39,086 nucleotides of DNA, taken from the IMG/VR virus record IMGVR_UViG_2541047917_000011. One strand, written 5' to 3'. Below the pieces are notes generated by a model, which worked only from the letters and a program-made list of their open reading frames with translations, ran no database searches and was not told where the DNA came from. The position numbers were made by a program, and so were the translations under genes. Position 1 is the stretch's first letter. The number at the start of each line of letters is the position of its first letter. Shown piece after piece: positions 4,247 to 11,104 of this stretch. The DNA comes from a virus (Duplodnaviria > Heunggongvirae > Uroviricota > Caudoviricetes).

Positions 4247-4449
4247 GGGGCAATATCCTCTTCTGTACGGGCTTCTTCAGTCTCAATCACCGGGATCAGT
4301 AACAACAGCCCGGAGGGCAGCACCGGCGTGATGGCCACGTGAGGATTGGCGGCAATAATCCGGGGATAGCCCAGCGGGTCACCGTAGTACTGCCATGCCA
4401 GCGAATCCCAGCGCTCTCCGTCACGGGTAACATGTTCAAGAAACATCAC
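4234..4449 (-). CDS. Tail protein X (LysM-like, P2 gpX family)
   Basis: 71 aa with the GD..D.I...YYG...I.AANP...LP.G pattern typical of gpX; overlaps both neighbours. Confidence 0.6.
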   Translation of the reverse strand: MMFLEHVTRDGERWDSLAWQYYGDPLGYPRIIAANPHVAITPVLPSGLLLLIPVIETEEARTEEDIAPWLR

Positions 4450-5330
4450 ACACTCCTCGTCAGTATTCTGGCGGCCATTGCACTTAATCCCGGAGACATG
4501 CGGTTGAATGCTGTGCCGGCGGCGTTAAGCTGCCCGGAAACGGTATCCAGAGCACCTGCAATATTTCTTTTGTCCACACCACTCAGCGCAGACTGTGCCT
4601 GCTGTACATACGTGGCTGCTTCGCTGGCTGTTCTGGCCAGACTGATGGCATCGGGCATGGATTCAGAGAGTGCGTTAAACGCCGGAACACTTTTCCCCAG
4701 AGCCCCGGAGATATTACCCAGTCCGCTCATCAGCCCCGGCACACGGGTCAGTGCGACAACGGGGTTATCCTTCATTTTCTGTGTCACCCGAACGGCGCTG
4801 ATAGTGGTCTGGAGTACAGACTGCGCCTGTTTCGCATAGTTGACGCCGTTGCGGATGAACTGCGCCACCCCTGAAGGTGAAGGAATGGCACCGGAGACCG
4901 CCCCGACACCCGGGAGCTTCGTGCGTATTGCCGGTGGTTGCAGAGGATTTTTCGGATCACCGGTGTATTCCCGGAGAGACACGGTGGCACTGACAGCCAG
5001 CACGTTACCGGTGCTGTCTGTCTGCTCGCTGGTTGCGGTCACATCGGTAATCACGAACCAGCCACGATAGTCACCGTTGCCGAAGACCAGCGCCAGTGCC
5101 TGATGGGCTTTCATGGCTGTTCGCAGTCTCGCCAGCTCCACATCGGGTACACAATAATGCTGATGGAAAACCAGAGTTATCTGGATTTCGTCCAGCCTGT
5201 CGCCGACGAACTGCAGGCCAGGCTTACCCCCGATGCGGGCATGCTCCGCATAATCGACGCCGAACGTGGCCTCGAAGCCGTCCCAGTAGGTAATCAGCTC
5301 AAACTCAATATCACCCAGTACGGCAAACAT
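4446..5330 (-). CDS. Tail protein, GpU / DNA-circularisation N-terminal domain family (Mu N-like)
   Basis: 294 aa directly downstream of the tape measure gene (stop/start overlap at 5330). Confidence 0.6.
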   Translation of the reverse strand: MFAVLGDIEFELITYWDGFEATFGVDYAEHARIGGKPGLQFVGDRLDEIQITLVFHQHYCVPDVELARLRTAMKAHQALALVFGNGDYRGWFVITDVTATSEQTDSTGNVLAVSATVSLREYTGDPKNPLQPPAIRTKLPGVGAVSGAIPSPSGVAQFIRNGVNYAKQAQSVLQTTISAVRVTQKMKDNPVVALTRVPGLMSGLGNISGALGKSVPAFNALSESMPDAISLARTASEAATYVQQAQSALSGVDKRNIAGALDTVSGQLNAAGTAFNRMSPGLSAMAARILTRSV

Positions 5331-8281
5331 CAGCGGTACTCCTTACGTTGTTTCTGAGCCAGCAGACGCTCCAGCATTTTTTCCAGCTCATGCAGGCTCA
5401 TATTCAGGGCGCCAGTCAGTCCGGCAGGCGCTGTGGTTTCCCTGCCATTGAGGAAAAACTGAGGATTAAAGCTGACCTGGATACCACCAGACGTTCCACC
5501 GCCGGTTGCAGCTGCACCACGGCCTGAATATCCGGCAGCCAGGATTTCAGGCGAGGGGATACGGGGAACATCCGGTGTCATCTCATTTGCCAGACGTTGC
5601 CCTGGTAAAATCGATGCCCGGGTGGAGAGCGGAATAGCGGGCATGGAAGACAAACTATTGATTACGGCTCCGATCGCATTTTTAGCAGACGACATAAACC
5701 CATTGATATCGGGCAACGGCATACTGAAGCGAACACCTGAAGTGTTATCCCGTATTTCTGGCCCCTGAATGCTCACGGGCATTTTGGGGAGCAGTTCACT
5801 GGCCATTCGCTGCCCGGCCAGAGCTGCAAGCGGAGTGGTCCGCTGCAGGCCAATGGCGGCCCCCTGCGCGATATTGTCACCAAAGCCCATAAACACGCGG
5901 CTCGGCGAATGAATGCCCAGCTTTTCGCTGAACCAGCCACTGATGCTGTCACCCATTCCGGTTACACTGGATTTGAGCGACTCCCATTTGTTTTTGATAC
6001 CGTTAATCAGACCGTCGACAAGATGGCCACCGAAGTCGGTGAACTTTGCCGGCAGATCAACACCAAGATATTTCAGCGCAGCTGCAAAGGCTTTATAGAG
6101 CAGACCTGCCGGCGACCAGTTAATCAGCAGCTTACCAGTTCCCGCGATACCGCCGTTAAAGGCTTCCTGAATGTCAGCCCAGCACTGTTTAAACCAGCTA
6201 CTGATGCTGTCACCCATTCCGGTTACACTGGATTTGAGCGACCCCCATTTGTTTTTGATACCGTTAATCAGACCGTCGATAAGATGGCCACCGAAGTCGG
6301 TGAACTTTGCCGGCAGAGCAACGCCGAAATATTTCAGCGCAGCCGCAAAGGCTTTATAGAGCAGGCCTGCCGGCGACCAGTTAATCAGCAACTTACCAAT
6401 TCCCACAATGCCGCCGTTAAAGGCTTCCTGAATGTCTGCCCAGCGCTGTTTAAACCAGCCACTGACTGCCCCCCAGTTGCGGTAGATAAGGTAAGCTGCT
6501 GCCGCGACAGCGGTGATAACGAGACCGATGGGATTCATCATCAGCGCACGTCCAATCCAGAGAACAGCACGTCCGGCGAGCATAATTCCGCGAACCAGCC
6601 CCCCGGAGAGCACGCCACTCAGTGTTCTGGCTCCTTTGGCGACGGCGCTAAATCCGGTCACCAGCCAGCGGAGCTTACCGCCTTGCCCCAGTGCGAGCGA
6701 CAGACGAAGCCAGTTGGCCCGAAGTAAAACAGCATTTTTCCAGACACTTACAAAGGGGGAAATAAGGAGATTCAGCCCCAGTTTGAGACCAACAGTCGCT
6801 ATCTTAATCGCAAGGAGCGCACTGATGAGCTTAAAAGCCCCACTGACAAATTGCGGGTGAGTCGCTACCCAGTGTTTTGCCCCCTGAATGAGTGGAAGCA
6901 GTTCCTGAGTCAGAGAAATAAAAGATGGAGCTAATTGATCGCCCAGCGTAATTGCCAGATCACGACTGCTGACCATAAGTGCTTTAGTGGCTTCAAGGGG
7001 AGATTTCAGCCGCTGATCATAAGCACTGGCAAGCAAATCGTTATCCGCAGCCCTGAGAGCACCGGCACGGATCTCTCGATATCTGTCCATGTTGGCCAGC
7101 ATCGGGCGGATAAATGCCATGACCTGCATATCCGCGAACATATCGCCCAGACCAAAGTTTTTCGCCAGAGCCTGAAGTGCCTCATCTCTTGCCGTATCAT
7201 TCTTTATTTTCATGGCTGATTTGAAGCCGGCCAGCGCTTCGGGGCTTTTGGCATTGAGGTAACGTTCTATAACACTCAACATCCCTTCAATCGGAGAGAT
7301 CCCCGCAGCTTTATAACTCGCAATAGATCCCTGCAAATCAATACCCAGATCAGCAAACTGTTTCTGAGTATCGCGGGCAAAAATTTTGGTAAGAAAGTTT
7401 TTAAAATTATTGGCTGCTTCGTCGGTGGAACCTGCACCGATTTTTGCTATCTGGAGACTGGCCCCGATTTCAGCAACAGCCTCTTTTCCACTGGCAATAC
7501 CCGCCATCATTGGGGCCAGGGACTGCATCCACTTGACCTGATCCGGGATTTCAAATGACCCCTGGTCACCGGCATAAGCCATAATATTCTGAACGGCACC
7601 AAAATCTCTGGCCGCACCTTTCAGGGAGTTTTGCCAGACTGCGGCCACTTTTGCCCAGTCCTGAGCAGACGTGCGTGTTGCCGTTGCCGCGCGGGCAATA
7701 TCCGGCATCAGAAAACCGATATCTGACACATTATCAATATTGTCGCTGATGAGTGAACCCACCGCCTCCTGCAGCTCATCCTGATACTGATTGTATTTAA
7801 GCGCCCAGCCTTTTATCTGTCCGGCAAGTGCATCCCGCGTTTTATTGTCATATTTTGCGGTGATCGACATATCAATCATTTTGTCCTGAAAAGACATGGA
7901 CTGCTGAACGGCAGGGGAAACCGTATGATAAACAGTCTGTGCCATGCCATACGCTTCAATCCCCTGACCATACAGCGCCATGCGGTTAGCTTTCAGCGCA
8001 TCACTGGTAGCGGATGCCGCTGACAGACGGCGCTGCTGGCGCTCAATTTGCTCCATGGTGCGGCTTACCCGCAGCAGCTCGCTGTTGAGATGCTGCATCC
8101 GGGAAGAACCCAGTTGACCATAACGTTCTGTTGCACGGGTTAAAGCGTTCTGACGTTCCTGCAGGCGGCGTGAGGTATCGCTCAGGGAATCAAGCGCACG
8201 GCGGGTACCGCTCATTGCAGAACGGAATGTGCTACCAATCATCCCGCCGATAACAACGCCGACTGAAAACTGTCCCGACAT
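5330..8281 (-). CDS. Tail tape measure protein
   Basis: 983 aa, coiled-coil N-terminal half, Gly/Ala-rich hydrophobic segments, internal tandem repeat; located between chaperone and U/X/D genes. Confidence 0.85.
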   Translation of the reverse strand: MSGQFSVGVVIGGMIGSTFRSAMSGTRRALDSLSDTSRRLQERQNALTRATERYGQLGSSRMQHLNSELLRVSRTMEQIERQQRRLSAASATSDALKANRMALYGQGIEAYGMAQTVYHTVSPAVQQSMSFQDKMIDMSITAKYDNKTRDALAGQIKGWALKYNQYQDELQEAVGSLISDNIDNVSDIGFLMPDIARAATATRTSAQDWAKVAAVWQNSLKGAARDFGAVQNIMAYAGDQGSFEIPDQVKWMQSLAPMMAGIASGKEAVAEIGASLQIAKIGAGSTDEAANNFKNFLTKIFARDTQKQFADLGIDLQGSIASYKAAGISPIEGMLSVIERYLNAKSPEALAGFKSAMKIKNDTARDEALQALAKNFGLGDMFADMQVMAFIRPMLANMDRYREIRAGALRAADNDLLASAYDQRLKSPLEATKALMVSSRDLAITLGDQLAPSFISLTQELLPLIQGAKHWVATHPQFVSGAFKLISALLAIKIATVGLKLGLNLLISPFVSVWKNAVLLRANWLRLSLALGQGGKLRWLVTGFSAVAKGARTLSGVLSGGLVRGIMLAGRAVLWIGRALMMNPIGLVITAVAAAAYLIYRNWGAVSGWFKQRWADIQEAFNGGIVGIGKLLINWSPAGLLYKAFAAALKYFGVALPAKFTDFGGHLIDGLINGIKNKWGSLKSSVTGMGDSISSWFKQCWADIQEAFNGGIAGTGKLLINWSPAGLLYKAFAAALKYLGVDLPAKFTDFGGHLVDGLINGIKNKWESLKSSVTGMGDSISGWFSEKLGIHSPSRVFMGFGDNIAQGAAIGLQRTTPLAALAGQRMASELLPKMPVSIQGPEIRDNTSGVRFSMPLPDINGFMSSAKNAIGAVINSLSSMPAIPLSTRASILPGQRLANEMTPDVPRIPSPEILAAGYSGRGAAATGGGTSGGIQVSFNPQFFLNGRETTAPAGLTGALNMSLHELEKMLERLLAQKQRKEYR
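5921..6465. repeat. Tandem duplication (period 261 bp, about 2.1 copies, ~90% identical) inside the tape measure gene
   Basis: Motif AACCAGC(C/T)ACTGA recurs at 5931, 6192 and 6453; encodes repeated ~87-aa unit WFKQ.WADIQEAFNGGI... Confidence 0.85.
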
Positions 8282-8356: not shown

Positions 8357-8450
8357 CTATGATTTGTCGCCGTACTCGCTTTTTATTTGCTCTTCAGCCT
8401 GCTCCAGCCACATCTCCAGATCGTCAGTATCGAGGGCATCAATCTCCCCC
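8357..8450 (-). other. Putative frameshift extension of the tail chaperone (+1 frame ORF continuing to 8357; G5 slippery run at 8446-8450)
   Basis: The +1 frame is open from 8614 to 8357 and encodes an acidic protein-like tail ending ...DDLEMWLEQAEEQIKSEYGDKS; otherwise 157 nt non-coding gap before tape measure start. Confidence 0.4.
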
Positions 8451-8774
8451 GGCTGAAACCGGAACCATCTCGCCAGCAGCCCCTGCGCCTGCGTCAGCGC
8501 CCTGGTTGCTCTCACCCATCCCCGTGATGAGCTGAAATCGTTTCTGTAACTGCAGGTAATCAGCCAGATCCATATTGTCGAGATCTTCCGGGAGAAGACC
8601 AGTACTGCGGGCAATCAGCGGTTCGTCCCAGTCTGCCGGGTTTTTGCTGATTTTGCGCACCTGCTTCAGGTCTTTTACCGTCAGGCGTTTCAGTTCAACC
8701 AGCTCAATTCTGGTGCCTGCAGCAGTGGTGAAGGGATAAGACAATTTAAAAGTATCGGATGGGGTCTGTGACAT
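8439..8774 (-). CDS. Tail assembly chaperone (short form), candidate frameshift gene
   Basis: 111 aa ORF immediately upstream of the tape measure gene, AGGAG RBS 7 nt before ATG 8774, overlapping downstream ORF in another frame. Confidence 0.55.
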   Translation of the reverse strand: MSQTPSDTFKLSYPFTTAAGTRIELVELKRLTVKDLKQVRKISKNPADWDEPLIARSTGLLPEDLDNMDLADYLQLQKRFQLITGMGESNQGADAGAGAAGEMVPVSAGGD

Positions 8775-8871: not shown

Positions 8872-9153
8872 TCAGCAAGTGCGAAACCCCTTGCAGTTAC
8901 GCAGGAAAGCGATGAGAAGCGTCTTTCCCTCAGATTTGCCGATGCCGGAGAACCAGTGGTCGGGAGGCTCCCATGCTTCAATCAAATCCGCCAGTTTGCG
9001 GGCCTTTGAACGTGTGCAGTCAATCGGGTCATTGGTTTTACGGGTATTAAAAAGGGTTTCCACCCCCGGAATATCAAGGAGGGTAAACCACGTACCATTT
9101 GACATGCCCAGTGCCGCACATCGTCCTCCTTTATCCGTCAGTTCAACACTCAC
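8872..9153 (-). CDS. Hypothetical small tail-region protein
   Basis: 93 aa ORF starting 3 nt after tube gene stop; followed by hairpin 8851-8864. Confidence 0.3.
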   Translation of the reverse strand: MSVELTDKGGRCAALGMSNGTWFTLLDIPGVETLFNTRKTNDPIDCTRSKARKLADLIEAWEPPDHWFSGIGKSEGKTLLIAFLRNCKGFRTC

Positions 9154-9155
9154 CG

Positions 9156-9677
9156 TCAGCCCCCGATATTGATACGGTAGTCAGTCAGTTGATCAACACC
9201 GCCGACCCGGAAGATGTTGGCCAGATAGTCCAGTTGCAGCAGCTCTTCACCATCCAGTACCTGTCTGATATACGTGCAGGTGAAGCTACTGGAGAACTCG
9301 GCGTTCTCGTGCTGTTTGAACGTCCCCAGCGGGTTCTTCTTGAACATAATCGTCAGGAAGGTGACCAGCGGGATTTCGTCAATCAGCCCCTGCGAGCTGT
9401 AGCGCTGGACGCTGGAACGACACTGCAGTGCCAGCGACCTGTACGGGTTCGCGGCAGACAGCATCGCATCGCGGTAAAAGCTGTTCCATTTGATTTCGCC
9501 TTCCAGTTTGTCAAAACCAGCCGGGAGTTCCACCTTACCCACCATCCCCAGCGCCTTGTGTTCCTGCATAATCATGGAGACATCGGGGAGTTTAACTTCC
9601 TCAGCCCGTCCCAGCAGGTTAGTACCATCCAGATAGATGTTGGCATTCGTGATGCGGTTTATCTCAATCTTTGACAT
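9156..9677 (-). CDS. Tail tube protein (Mu M / P2 FII family)
   Basis: 173 aa, immediately after sheath gene (overlap at 9677). Confidence 0.8.
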   Translation of the reverse strand: MSKIEINRITNANIYLDGTNLLGRAEEVKLPDVSMIMQEHKALGMVGKVELPAGFDKLEGEIKWNSFYRDAMLSAANPYRSLALQCRSSVQRYSSQGLIDEIPLVTFLTIMFKKNPLGTFKQHENAEFSSSFTCTYIRQVLDGEELLQLDYLANIFRVGGVDQLTDYRINIGG

Positions 9678-11104
9678 CAGTTGCCCCCTTTCAGGGTTAA
9701 CAGGTATTCCGAGGTGATCTCAGTCTCAAACGTCAGTCGCTCCAGCGGCGGTGGTGGCGTATATTTGTAGCTCAGCAACAGGTGCCCGGCGGCCAGCTCC
9801 GTCTCCGGATTGCGGGCCGGATCAAACCAGCAACGGAAGCCCAGTACCGCACCATCACCAGTCATTTTGCGACCGTAGGCGTTGACCGACTCCGTCAGTG
9901 CATCAATCAGCGCCTGAGTAATCGGCATGTCGATGTACTGCTGGCTGAAATAACGAATGGACTCGTTGATCACATCACCGGTGCGGCGAACGTTCTCAAA
10001 GTTACGCATATGGGTGACCGTTGGCCATGCTGCCGTCCGGTTACCCCACAGACGAAGGCCGCTGCCGTAACTGCTGAATACCGTGGTGATCCCCTGTTCG
10101 TTAAGCAGGTTCACCTCACTCTGCGGGTCATCAATCATCGCGGACAGCTGGCGCTCCACGCCGGTGATCCCCAGAATCTCCTGATTGGAGGATGACCACC
10201 AGTAGCCCTTGTCCAGATCGACTCTGGCACGCAGACCTGCTGCACGCTGGCTGAGCGGCTCCAGACGCTCTGTGTTTGTCACCGGGTCATATACCTTCAC
10301 ATGCGGATAGCACAGACGGACGCGGTCGGAGCTGGTATTGAAGTTGATGGTGCCTTCCGGGCCACGACCTGCCAGAGCCTGTGCAAAGGTGGTACCGACA
10401 GGCGCATCAATGTAGGTTACCGCGCCCAGCTTCTCTGCCATGGCGATAAGCTCAACTGCGACACTCTTCTGGGTGCAGAACACCGGCGCAATCAGAATTT
10501 TGGCGAAATAGCCGTACAGGTTGAAGCTGTCGTTAAGCAGCTTCATGCCAGTTCGGTTTCCGGCGCTATTCACCCCGCCGATGATGTCCGCCGCAGTCAC
10601 CTTCGACGGGTCCGCGTACTCATAGCTCACCTTCACGCTGCCACCGGCCTCAATAGCCTTGCCCAGGTTCGTGAGCACACCCGCCTGCGCATCAACACGG
10701 TAGTCCGTGTTCGCCGTGTGGGTGGTGCTGCCTTCACTGTTTTTCACCACCACATTAGCGACAACCGGATGCGCCAGTCTGGCCTGCCCTGTCGATTTGT
10801 CAAAGGTAACCACCTCATCCTCGATCGCCGTTTTATGTTTCGCCGGGTCGAGGACGTTAATGACCAGAACGGTACCTGCACCATGGTCATAAATCGCATC
10901 CAGCGCCTGCGGAATGGTAAAGCCGGTGAACTGGCTGCCAAATGCCGCTGCGTCTTTCTCAGACAGGCACTGTACCAGCGTATTGACATCCCCCATCGGG
11001 GCGGTACCAATCAGGCCAATAACGGCAGATTTCACCGTTTTAACCGGGCGGGCTCCGTTTTCCACCTCAATGGTTTCGGGACCATGCAGATAGTTAGCTG
11101 CCAT
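9677..11104 (-). CDS. Contractile tail sheath protein (Mu L / P2 FI family)
   Basis: 475 aa ORF with sheath-family character, precedes tube gene. Confidence 0.85.
   Translation of the reverse strand: MAANYLHGPETIEVENGARPVKTVKSAVIGLIGTAPMGDVNTLVQCLSEKDAAAFGSQFTGFTIPQALDAIYDHGAGTVLVINVLDPAKHKTAIEDEVVTFDKSTGQARLAHPVVANVVVKNSEGSTTHTANTDYRVDAQAGVLTNLGKAIEAGGSVKVSYEYADPSKVTAADIIGGVNSAGNRTGMKLLNDSFNLYGYFAKILIAPVFCTQKSVAVELIAMAEKLGAVTYIDAPVGTTFAQALAGRGPEGTINFNTSSDRVRLCYPHVKVYDPVTNTERLEPLSQRAAGLRARVDLDKGYWWSSSNQEILGITGVERQLSAMIDDPQSEVNLLNEQGITTVFSSYGSGLRLWGNRTAAWPTVTHMRNFENVRRTGDVINESIRYFSQQYIDMPITQALIDALTESVNAYGRKMTGDGAVLGFRCWFDPARNPETELAAGHLLLSYKYTPPPPLERLTFETEITSEYLLTLKGGN

What the first reader, a model, noticed from the sequence alone, without database searches (positions are those of the whole stretch)
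8357..8774. Tail chaperone with overlapping extension ORF in the +1 (or -2) frame and a G5 slippery run
The chaperone ORF stops at 8439, yet a second frame stays open from 8614 to 8357 across an otherwise 157-nt gap before the tape measure gene, encoding an acidic protein-like tail. The two frames are related by +1, not the usual -1, and a GGGGG run (8446-8450, minus-strand sense) lies two codons before the stop, a plausible slip site. A programmed frameshift is expected at this position in tail operons; the direction would be the less common one.
Basis: partly seen in the sequence, partly recalled or inferred. Interest (0 to 1): 0.5.

Follow-up and report, generated by a model that had tools for sequence, protein, structure and literature searches.

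The report
Tail chaperone frameshift, different slip site

Summary
E (PF10109 chaperone, 8774..8439, minus strand) is overlapped by a frame open over 8614..8357, offset +1, and a G5 run lies at 8450..8446.

The element is a BcepMu-like homologue of the P2 gpE/gpE+E' tail chaperone pair, sitting between the tube and tape-measure genes.

The G5 run is not the conserved slip site:
- Many relatives have a frame-0 stop before it, and others lack it.
- The 10 codons upstream of it (LLARWFRFQP) are under purifying selection in the +1 frame (pN/pS 0.12 versus 7.6 in frame 0).
- It lies inside the Pfam GpE domain.

Across about 110 distinct relatives, the stretch where a shift is possible shrinks to about 11 codons. 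Its only invariant feature is an in-phase TTT_C at Phe80, the end of the E domain. In Enterobacterales the preceding Arg codon is the rare CGA (79 of 80), while every other conserved residue varies its codon. UUU_C is a known +1 shift-prone site.

The predicted product is a 138-aa E+E', join(8774..8535, 8533..8357). It aligns colinearly with P2 E+E'. No conserved internal start codon or RNA structure was found.

This is a known kind of system with an apparently unannotated direction and site. No experiment has tested it.

The parts
8439..8774 (-). Gene E: tail assembly chaperone, 111 aa, made by standard decoding. The conserved domain ends at about Phe80-Gly85. The frame-0 tail after that is variable in sequence and length among relatives.
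   Evidence: PF10109 Phage_TAC_7, E 5.5e-21, residues 8-81; phrog_166 'tail protein'. E stop positions range from +27 to +108 nt after the Phe80 codon among intact relatives.
8534..8540 (-). Proposed +1 frameshift site CGA_UUU_C: Arg79 at 8540..8538, Phe80 at 8537..8535, C at 8534. The peptidyl-tRNAPhe re-pairs from UUU to UUC, and the next codon read is AGC at 8533..8531.
   Evidence: TTT plus C is invariant in 91 of 91 distinct sequences that were chosen by protein motif rather than by nucleotides; CGATTTC is present in 89 of them. The in-phase TTT_C is also present in the Burkholderia and Pseudomonas clades and in a Ralstonia phage. It lies inside the only interval open to a shift in all relatives, -8 to +27 nt. 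CGA makes up 2% of Arg codons in the window's structural genes.
8357..8533 (-). E' coding segment in the +1 frame: 58 aa, SSSRGWVRATRALTQAQGLLARWFRFQPGEIDALDTDDLEMWLEQAEEQIKSEYGDKS, plus TAG at 8359..8357. The predicted E+E' is join(8774..8535, 8533..8357), 138 aa.
   Evidence: E' lengths of 53-60 aa in 33 of 35 distinct relatives sampled, against 56 aa in P2. hhalign of E+E' against P2 gpE+E' gives 93.4% probability, E 2.5e-7, colinear over 122 columns. phrog_8286, E 2.7e-34.
8378..8476 (-). GpE (PF06528) domain of E', residues 100-132 of the predicted fusion.
   Evidence: The window sequence scores 18.4 bits (E 0.0015), below the gathering score of 23. 16 of 21 relatives match at E<=0.01, best 1e-5. 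RefSeq names the standalone ORF 'GpE family phage tail protein', WP_001202894.1.
8446..8450 (-). It lies within the E' codons CCG GGG GAG (Pro-Gly-Glu, 8452..8444). It is not the conserved slip site.
8450..8479 (-). LLARWFRFQP: the stretch inside the E ORF and upstream of the G5 where selection acts on the +1 frame only.
   Evidence: Pooled Nei-Gojobori over 83 distinct sequences: frame 0 pS 0.026, pN 0.195; +1 frame pS 0.505, pN 0.062.
5330..8281 (-). Tape measure protein gene (983 aa), directly downstream. The tape measure is the expected binding partner of the E moiety.
   Evidence: PF10145, E 2e-20; annotated as tape measure in PhiKM and in E. coli RefSeq.
9156..11104 (-). Tail sheath (11104..9677) and tail tube (9677..9156) genes, upstream. 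The tube is the expected partner of the E' moiety.
   Evidence: PF04984/PF17482 and PF04985, E 2.9e-53.

Best explanation
The window holds the tail module of a BcepMu-like (Bcepmuvirus-type) prophage of E. coli.

Gene E gives two proteins from one start codon. Most ribosomes read frame 0 and make the 111-aa chaperone E. A minority shift +1 at CGA_UUU_C (8540..8534). While UUU (Phe80) is in the P site, tRNAPhe (anticodon GAA) slips from the G:U-wobble codon UUU to the fully Watson-Crick codon UUC, and decoding continues at AGC (8533). This gives a 138-aa E+E' whose C-terminal 58 residues carry the GpE domain.

By analogy with P2 E/E+E' and lambda G/GT, the shared E part would bind the tape measure protein. 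The E' part would recruit the tube protein at a fixed low ratio. Neither would end up in the virion.

What is shown here:
- the frame relation;
- +1-frame coding upstream of the G5;
- the narrow permitted interval for a shift;
- nucleotide-level fixation of CGA-TTT-C;
- homology and colinearity with P2 E+E'.

What is inferred:
- that the ribosome actually shifts at this site;
- the P-site slippage mechanism;
- a possible enhancing role for the weakly pairing (I:A) CGA codon in the E site;
- the efficiency of the shift;
- the chaperone roles of the two proteins.
For: 1. Identity and context. E is PF10109 and lies between the tube and tape measure genes. The DNA is 99.6% identical to phage PhiKM (Bcepmuvirus) and is present in 641 of 5426 complete E. 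coli genomes.

2. E' is in the +1 frame in 126 of 129 loci. One of the 126 is the phage Mu locus, where the match is spurious. The three exceptions carry 1-nt deletions.

3. Selection by segment, as pN/pS in frame 0 versus +1: E domain 0.25 vs 1.16; LLARWFRFQP 7.6 vs 0.12; after the E stop 1.44 vs 0.37. The most variable codon position flips at Phe80.

4. Permitted interval. The +1 frame opens only 8 nt before TTT in Ralstonia phage YO107_2. Frame 0 stops 27 nt after it in a Citrobacter prophage.

5. TTT_C is invariant, and CGA is used in 79 of 80 distinct sequences with Arg at that position. Every other column conserved at 90% or more that has synonymous codons available uses 2-5 of them; for example, the other invariant Arg is CGC 46, CGT 30, CGG 5, CGA 1. 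CGA is 2.1% of Arg codons, and in-frame CGATTTC occurs nowhere else in 15 structural genes.

6. The same in-phase TTT_C is present in the Burkholderia (UCC/GCC_UUU_CGC) and Pseudomonas (GCA_UUU_CAA) clades.

7. The P2 -1 site GGT_TTT_TTG falls within a few residues of Phe80 in the profile alignment, and the E' lengths match.

8. UUU_Ynn is described as especially prone to +1 frameshifting in bacteria. UCC_UUU_CGU is the influenza PA-X +1 site (PMC5009743).

9. No +1-frame alignment column holds a start codon in more than 47% of sequences.
Against: - There is no experimental product.
- The A-site codon after UUU (CAG) is not rare, and no SD-like element or conserved RNA structure was found. Efficiency may therefore be low.
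- In the 18 codons between Phe80 and LLARWF, the two frames are about equally constrained (0.76 vs 0.62). Selection alone therefore does not pin the site to Phe80.
- Phe80 and Arg79 are also conserved residues of E, so only their synonymous-site fixation counts as evidence.
- The permitted-interval argument assumes that relatives shift at a homologous position.
- The proposed YopN UUU_U site did not hold up to mutagenesis (PMC3789692).
Confidence: 0.75

Rival explanations
1. One reading: the ribosome shifts at the G5 run (8450..8446). This would be either -2 (tRNAGly moving from GGA back to GGG, as at the verified Mu site CGG_GGG_C) or +1 (GGG to GGG). The product would be E(1-109/110) joined to the last 28-29 residues of E'.
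For: Re-pairing is chemically possible in this sequence. Phage Mu, whose chaperone is named in the same Pfam family's description, uses a verified -2 shift on a G5 run near the end of gp41. The run sits close to the E stop, as in many G/GT pairs.
Against: The G5 lies after the E stop in a large clade and is absent in several others, while E' stays intact. The 10 codons before it are +1-frame coding sequence. The product would lack a third of the GpE domain. The run is explained by the codons for Pro-Gly-Glu.
Confidence: 0.05
2. E' is translated on its own from an internal start, for example the GTG at 8515 that RefSeq uses for the 52-aa 'GpE family phage tail protein'. No frameshift is involved.
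For: PGAP and some gene callers annotate a standalone ORF. A G-rich stretch precedes the GTG.
Against: No +1-frame alignment column has a conserved start codon. The 8515-equivalent codon is GCA, ATC, GTA, ATA and others in most relatives, and a start codon in only 12%. P2 E' was shown to be a frameshift extension (GenBank AF063097 annotation; PMC3091744). Fixation of CGA_TTT_C would be left unexplained.
Confidence: 0.07
3. A +1 shift occurs, but at another site between 8614 and about 8490 that is specific to this lineage. Candidates are GGG_A at 8522..8519 and GGG_G at 8484..8481.
For: Both allow tRNAGly to re-pair in the +1 frame in this sequence. Selection does not resolve the 18 codons after Phe80.
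Against: Neither motif is conserved. Relatives have GGA TTG, GGC GTG or GGC GTT at these places, or a frame-0 stop before them.
Confidence: 0.08
4. The second frame is a decaying or non-functional remnant in a cryptic prophage.
For: A few database copies carry indels here.
Against: There is strong purifying selection on the +1 frame across genera. The whole tail module is intact.
Confidence: 0.02

Closest known systems
Phage P2 gpE / gpE+E' (FETUD operon; -1 frameshift at T_TTT_TTG)
   Same: Homologous E domain (PF10109) and E' domain (PF06528). Same gene position between tube and tape measure. The shift site is at a Phe codon at the end of the E domain. The extension is about 56-58 aa. No stimulatory RNA structure is known or found.
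   Different: The direction is +1, not -1. It is a single UUU_C P-site slip rather than a tandem heptamer. The frame-0 tail after the site is 31 aa here, against 6 aa in P2.
Phage Mu gp41 / gp41-42 (verified -2 frameshift at CGG_GGG_C)
   Same: Mu gp41 is named in the description of the same Pfam family (E/41/14). The extension lies in the +1 frame relative to the chaperone. A G5 run is present.
   Different: In Mu the G5 is the shift site and lies just before the extension. Here the G5 lies inside the conserved E' domain and is dispensable in relatives. The Mu extension is not similar to GpE.
Lambda gpG / gpGT
   Same: Same logic: two products at a fixed ratio. The shared part binds the tape measure and the extension binds the tube or major tail protein (PMC5009743).
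   Different: No sequence similarity. Lambda uses a -1 shift at G_GGA_AAG. That same heptamer is used by a Pasteurella phage E/E' pair (L136).
UUU_Y +1 shift-prone sites: E. coli UUU_Ynn, influenza A PA-X UCC_UUU_CGU, proposed Yersinia YopN-TyeA UUU_UGG
   Same: Zero-frame UUU followed by a pyrimidine, which allows tRNAPhe to re-pair +1. The Burkholderia clade site UCC_UUU_CGC is almost the PA-X cassette.
   Different: PA-X relies on a slowly decoded A-site CGU. Here the A-site codon is common, and the conserved neighbour is the 5' codon CGA. The YopN site is unconfirmed.
prfB (RF2) +1 frameshift CUU_UGA_C
   Same: A bacterial programmed +1 P-site slip. Weak E-site pairing is proposed to favour the shift (PMC5009743).
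   Different: prfB needs a stop codon in the A site and an upstream SD-like element. Neither is present here.

Membership tests
P2-type gpE/gpE+E' tail assembly chaperone pair | N-terminal chaperone domain PF10109 (Phage_TAC_7) | tested here: met
   E 5.5e-21, 74.8 bits against a cut-off of 25. 21 of 21 relatives match.
P2-type gpE/gpE+E' tail assembly chaperone pair | Gene lies between the tail tube gene and the tape measure gene | tested here: met
   Tube 9677..9156, E 8774..8439, tape measure 8281..5330. One extra small ORF (9153..8872) intervenes.
P2-type gpE/gpE+E' tail assembly chaperone pair | Overlapping ORF with the GpE domain (PF06528) and no start codon of its own | tested here: met
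   The window scores 18.4 bits, below the gathering score of 23. 16 of 21 relatives match at E<=0.01. hhalign to P2 E+E' gives 93.4% probability. No conserved start codon.
P2-type gpE/gpE+E' tail assembly chaperone pair | -1 frameshift on T_TTT_TTG | tested here: not met
   E' is in the +1 frame. There is no heptamer; the site is CGA_TTT_C.
P2-type gpE/gpE+E' tail assembly chaperone pair | A fusion polypeptide is made and is essential for tail assembly | not testable with these tools
   Needs mass spectrometry, a reporter assay or genetics.
Mu-type -2 frameshift on a G5 run | Extension in the +1 frame, with a G-run that allows tRNAGly to re-pair at -2 | tested here: met
   GCC GGG GGA: the GGA codon can re-pair with GGG at -2. 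Mu has CGG GGG CGA.
Mu-type -2 frameshift on a G5 run | The G-run is conserved and reachable in frame 0, and the extension domain begins after it | tested here: not met
   A frame-0 stop precedes it in a whole clade; the run is absent in others; E' coding and the GpE domain begin at least 10 codons upstream.
UUU_Y +1 P-site slippage site | Zero-frame UUU followed by C or U, fixed at synonymous positions | tested here: met
   91 of 91 distinct sequences, plus the Burkholderia, Pseudomonas and Ralstonia clades. Control codons vary.
UUU_Y +1 P-site slippage site | A stimulator: slowly decoded A-site codon, upstream SD-like element or RNA structure | tested here: not met
   The A-site codon is CAG, CAA or CGC. 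The consensus structure has -1.84 kcal/mol and the single-sequence fold has z = 0.05. A conserved 5' CGA is a candidate E-site effector, but that is inference only.
UUU_Y +1 P-site slippage site | Measured +1 frameshifting at the site | not testable with these tools
   Needs a dual-reporter assay or mass spectrometry.

The most novel reading that the evidence does not exclude
A whole lineage of P2/BcepMu-type myophage tail modules, spanning Enterobacterales, Burkholderia, Pseudomonas and Ralstonia, expresses E+E' by a programmed +1 shift at UUU_C that needs no stimulator. The site is the Phe codon position where P2 shifts -1. The direction of a programmed frameshift would thus have switched in evolution while its location was kept.

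In Enterobacterales a fixed, otherwise avoided CGA codon in the E site would act as enhancer.

This would be one of very few conserved bacterial +1 recoding sites besides prfB, and a bacterial counterpart of the influenza PA-X site. As far as I could find, it is not annotated in GenBank, RefSeq or PHROGs and is not described in the papers I could read.
Probability: 0.55. Interest if true: 0.55.

Novelty: new variant of a known kind. Interest (0 to 1): 0.4.

Why it matters
Programmed frameshifting in tail-chaperone genes is textbook, so the existence of E+E' here is ordinary. What is useful is the correction of the site and the comparative evidence behind it.

- It offers a natural, widely conserved +1 site in bacteria with no stop codon, no SD-like element and no RNA structure. 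It also shows a fixed rare 5' codon that can be tested directly as an E-site effector.
- It exposes a systematic annotation gap. E' is called as a separate 'GpE family' or unknown-function ORF, or is missed, in RefSeq, GenBank phage records and PHROGs. The BcepMu reference record places the slippage between the wrong ORFs.
- The prophage is present in about 12% of complete E. coli genomes, including the ST131 strain EC958.

Tried and rejected
- RNA stimulator. RNAalifold on 31 diverse sequences (-12 to +110 nt around TTT) gave -1.84 kcal/mol and essentially no covariation. The single-sequence fold had z = 0.05. No structure is proposed.

- Natural single-ORF E-E' fusions as a guide to the junction. 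The 138-aa database proteins turned out to be indel artefacts or decayed copies at varying positions. An exhaustive search of 1.84 billion representatives with E' found only short standalone calls and no genuine fusion.

- Internal initiation was rejected.

- Transcriptional slippage was rejected. This is inference: there is no long homopolymer at any conserved position.

- NCBIfam gave no usable hit for E or E'.

- Xu et al. 2004, Christie et al. 2002 and Schwartz & Curran 1997 are not held in the library. Their content is cited only through papers that describe them, or from the GenBank notes. I therefore cannot rule out that one of them, or Summer et al. 2004 on BcepMu, already mentions a +1 arrangement for this lineage.

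- My first diversity profile was anchored on the wrong CGGTTTC, the one at 8461..8455 in WFRFQ. It was re-read in +1-frame phase and the analysis was redone with the right anchor.

Full report
**1. The observation**

- An ORF runs 8774..8439 (111 aa, stop TGA at 8441..8439).
- A second frame is open over 8614..8357. Its offset from the first is +1, since 160 nt = 3x53+1.
- GGGGG lies at 8450..8446, within GCC GGG GGA GAT TGA.
- The next gene starts at 8281, which leaves 157 nt after the E stop.
- The second frame ends in an acidic tail.

**2. What the genes are**

Pfam assigns the surrounding ORFs as follows.
- The 111-aa ORF is PF10109 (Phage_TAC_7, 'tail assembly chaperone proteins E, or 41 or 14'), E 5.5e-21.
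- Its neighbours are sheath (11104..9677), tube (9677..9156), tape measure (8281..5330) and gpU (5330..4446).

The region is 99.6% identical to Escherichia phage PhiKM, which is classified in Bcepmuvirus. It occurs in 641 of 5426 complete E. coli genomes, including EC958.

RefSeq sometimes annotates the distal part of the second frame as a free-standing 52-aa 'GpE family phage tail protein'. The phage records annotate nothing there. PHROGs files it under unknown function.

Reference systems for comparison:
- P2 is annotated with gpE+E' made by a -1 shift.
- Mu carries a 'verified -2 translational frameshift' at CGG GGG CGA.
- The Atkins et al. 2016 review states that tailed phages use -1, -2 or +1 shifts for this gene pair (PMC5009743).

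**3. Is the second frame real?**

I collected 42 loci from GTDB species genomes, 80 from IMG/VR, and further ones from phage records and protein look-ups.

E' lies in the +1 frame in 126 of 129 loci. One of the 126 is the phage Mu locus, where the match is spurious. The three exceptions carry single-base deletions, and two of these are in or next to the G-run.

E' is better conserved than E: 92-97% identity where E is 66-85%.

**4. Why the G5 run is not the site**

Four lines of evidence argue against it.
- A large clade at about 85% E identity reads ...GAG GTG GTT TAG ATT TCA GCC GGG GGA.... Frame 0 therefore ends 21 nt before a G5 that is nevertheless retained.
- Photorhabdus, Xenorhabdus, Lonsdalea, Brenneria, Dickeya, Ralstonia, Pseudomonas and Burkholderia relatives have CCG AGT GAG or similar. 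They have no G-run, yet they keep LLARWFRFQP-S-EI.
- Pooled Nei-Gojobori counts over 83 distinct sequences give these pN/pS values:

| Segment | Frame 0 | +1 frame |
|---|---|---|
| E domain upstream of Phe80 | 0.25 | 1.16 |
| Phe80+1 to LLARWF (18 codons) | 0.76 | 0.62 |
| LLARWFRFQP (8479..8450, just upstream of the G5) | 7.6 | 0.12 |
| After the E stop | 1.44 | 0.37 |

  The ribosomes that matter are therefore already in the +1 frame before the G5.
- The Pfam GpE match covers residues 100-132 of the fusion (8476..8378), so it spans the G5. The G5 encodes Pro-Gly-Glu.

The frame-0 TGA two codons later falls inside the E' codons ATT GAT. Its proximity to the G5 is a by-product of E' coding.

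**5. Where the shift is**

For each relative, a shift must occur after the last +1-frame stop and before the frame-0 stop. Positions below are relative to the first T of the Phe80 codon.
- The tightest upstream bound is -8 (Ralstonia phage YO107_2), followed by -14 (L009).
- The tightest downstream bound is +27. This comes from a Citrobacter portucalensis prophage in which E ends RFQSFAGLAA*.

If the position is homologous across relatives, about 11 codons remain. The only invariant feature in that stretch is TTT followed by C.
- 91 of 91 distinct sequences, chosen by protein motif, have TTT_C. 89 have CGATTTC, one has CGGTTTC, and BcepMu has TCCTTTC.
- Thirteen distinct Burkholderia BcepMu-clade sequences and four Pseudomonas-type ones have a single in-phase TTT_C at the same Phe. 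Their contexts are UCC/GCC/UCU_UUU_CGY, GCA/GCG_UUU_CAA and AAA_UUU_CAG.
- A Trinickia relative has ACG TTT TTT CAA.

Internal controls support a nucleotide-level constraint.
- Every other column conserved at 90% or more that has synonymous codons available uses 2-5 of them. Arg79 is CGA in 79 of 80 sequences, whereas the other invariant Arg is CGC 46, CGT 30, CGG 5, CGA 1.
- In 15 structural genes of the window, CGA is 2.1% of Arg codons and TTT:TTC is 86:84. In-frame CGATTTC occurs nowhere else.
- The first base of the next codon is always C, although the amino acid it encodes varies (Gln, Arg, His, Leu).
- The most variable codon position flips from the frame-0 wobble to the +1 wobble at Phe80.
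- Trp at E' position 6 (TGG) is invariant in the +1 frame.

**6. Mechanism (inferred)**

UUU_C lets tRNAPhe(GAA) move from a G:U-wobble codon to the cognate UUC one base downstream. The review describes UUU_Ynn as 'especially prone to +1 frameshifting' in bacteria even without a stop codon. It gives UCC_UUU_CGU as the influenza PA-X cassette and discusses weak E-site pairing as favouring +1 shifts (PMC5009743).

CGA is read through an I:A wobble (general knowledge). Its fixation 5' of UUU suggests an E-site or P-site effect, but this is untested.

No stimulator was found. There is no conserved structure, and the A-site codons are common. A low efficiency, as with lambda (30:1 ratio), would be sufficient.

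A -2 event is not possible at this site, because no re-pairing is available.

**7. Relation to P2**

The predicted product is join(8774..8535, 8533..8357), 138 aa.
- E' defined in this way is 53-60 aa in 33 of 35 distinct relatives sampled, against 56 aa in P2.
- A profile of 21 such fusions aligns colinearly with P2 gpE+E'. The probability is 93.4%, E 2.5e-7, over 122 columns. Phe80 falls within a few residues of the P2 shift codons GGT TTT TTG.
- A Pasteurella phage of the same family has E' in the -1 frame behind G_GGA_AAG.

Within one homologous gene pair, the site of recoding is therefore kept at the end of the E domain, while its direction and motif differ between lineages.

**8. Rivals**

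- Independent initiation. No +1-frame column holds a start codon in more than 47% of sequences. The RefSeq GTG (8515) is a start codon in only 12%.
- Other sites specific to this lineage (GGG_A, GGG_G) are possible in this sequence but are not conserved.
- A minor extra shift at the G5 cannot be excluded.
- No genuine single-ORF fusion exists among 1.84 billion representative proteins. The fused database entries are indel variants.

**9. Verdict**

This is an ordinary class of element (tail chaperone recoding) in a variant that appears to be unannotated: a +1 shift at CGA_UUU_C. It rests on strong comparative evidence and on no experiment.

I could not read Xu 2004, Christie 2002 or Summer 2004, so prior description cannot be excluded.

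Noticed in passing
window 5931..6465 (inside the tape measure gene 8281..5330, minus strand): A 261-bp (87-aa) tandem duplication, 2.0 copies, 93% identical. Relatives have shorter tape measure genes (KP12: 2466 nt against 2952 nt here), and the PhiKM record has a sequencing gap at this place. A longer tape measure would predict a longer tail.
   Followed up: partly
window 8872..9153 (minus strand): A conserved 93-aa ORF lies between the tube gene and E. It matches phrog_1239 (unknown function, E 4.7e-48) and matches Pfam DUF7739 weakly, below the gathering score. P2 has no gene at this position.
   Followed up: no
P0001, P0003 (database proteins); L017 about 1834-1850; L128 about 1840-1856: Some copies have lost one base in or next to the G5 run. 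This puts E in frame with the distal part of E' (..VSAG-EIDALD..) and breaks the +1 reading from Phe80. They could be sequencing errors or decayed prophages (Erwinia tracheiphila). They occur on 8-12 contigs each.
   Followed up: partly
L004 (BcepMu AY539836) 4603..5364: The reference BcepMu record annotates slippage between gp42 and gp43. The comparative data indicate instead that the gp42 ORF is the +1-frame E' extension of gp41, reached at UCC_UUU_CGC. That motif is nearly the influenza PA-X +1 site.
   Followed up: partly
window 8453..8461 (minus strand): A second CGGTTTCAG occurs inside E' (codons Arg-Phe-Gln of WFRFQP), where it is in phase with the +1 frame. It misled my first anchoring and has no evident role.
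   Followed up: yes
window 4446..5330 (minus strand): The gpU homologue is 294 aa, with the PF06995 match confined to residues 6-123. The C-terminal 170 or so residues are Ala/Ser/Gly-rich and have no Pfam family. P2 gpU is 159 aa.
   Followed up: no
L136 (Pasteurella phage AFS-2018a) about 850-1029: E' lies in the -1 frame behind a lambda-like G_GGA_AAG heptamer and is not annotated in the record.
   Followed up: partly
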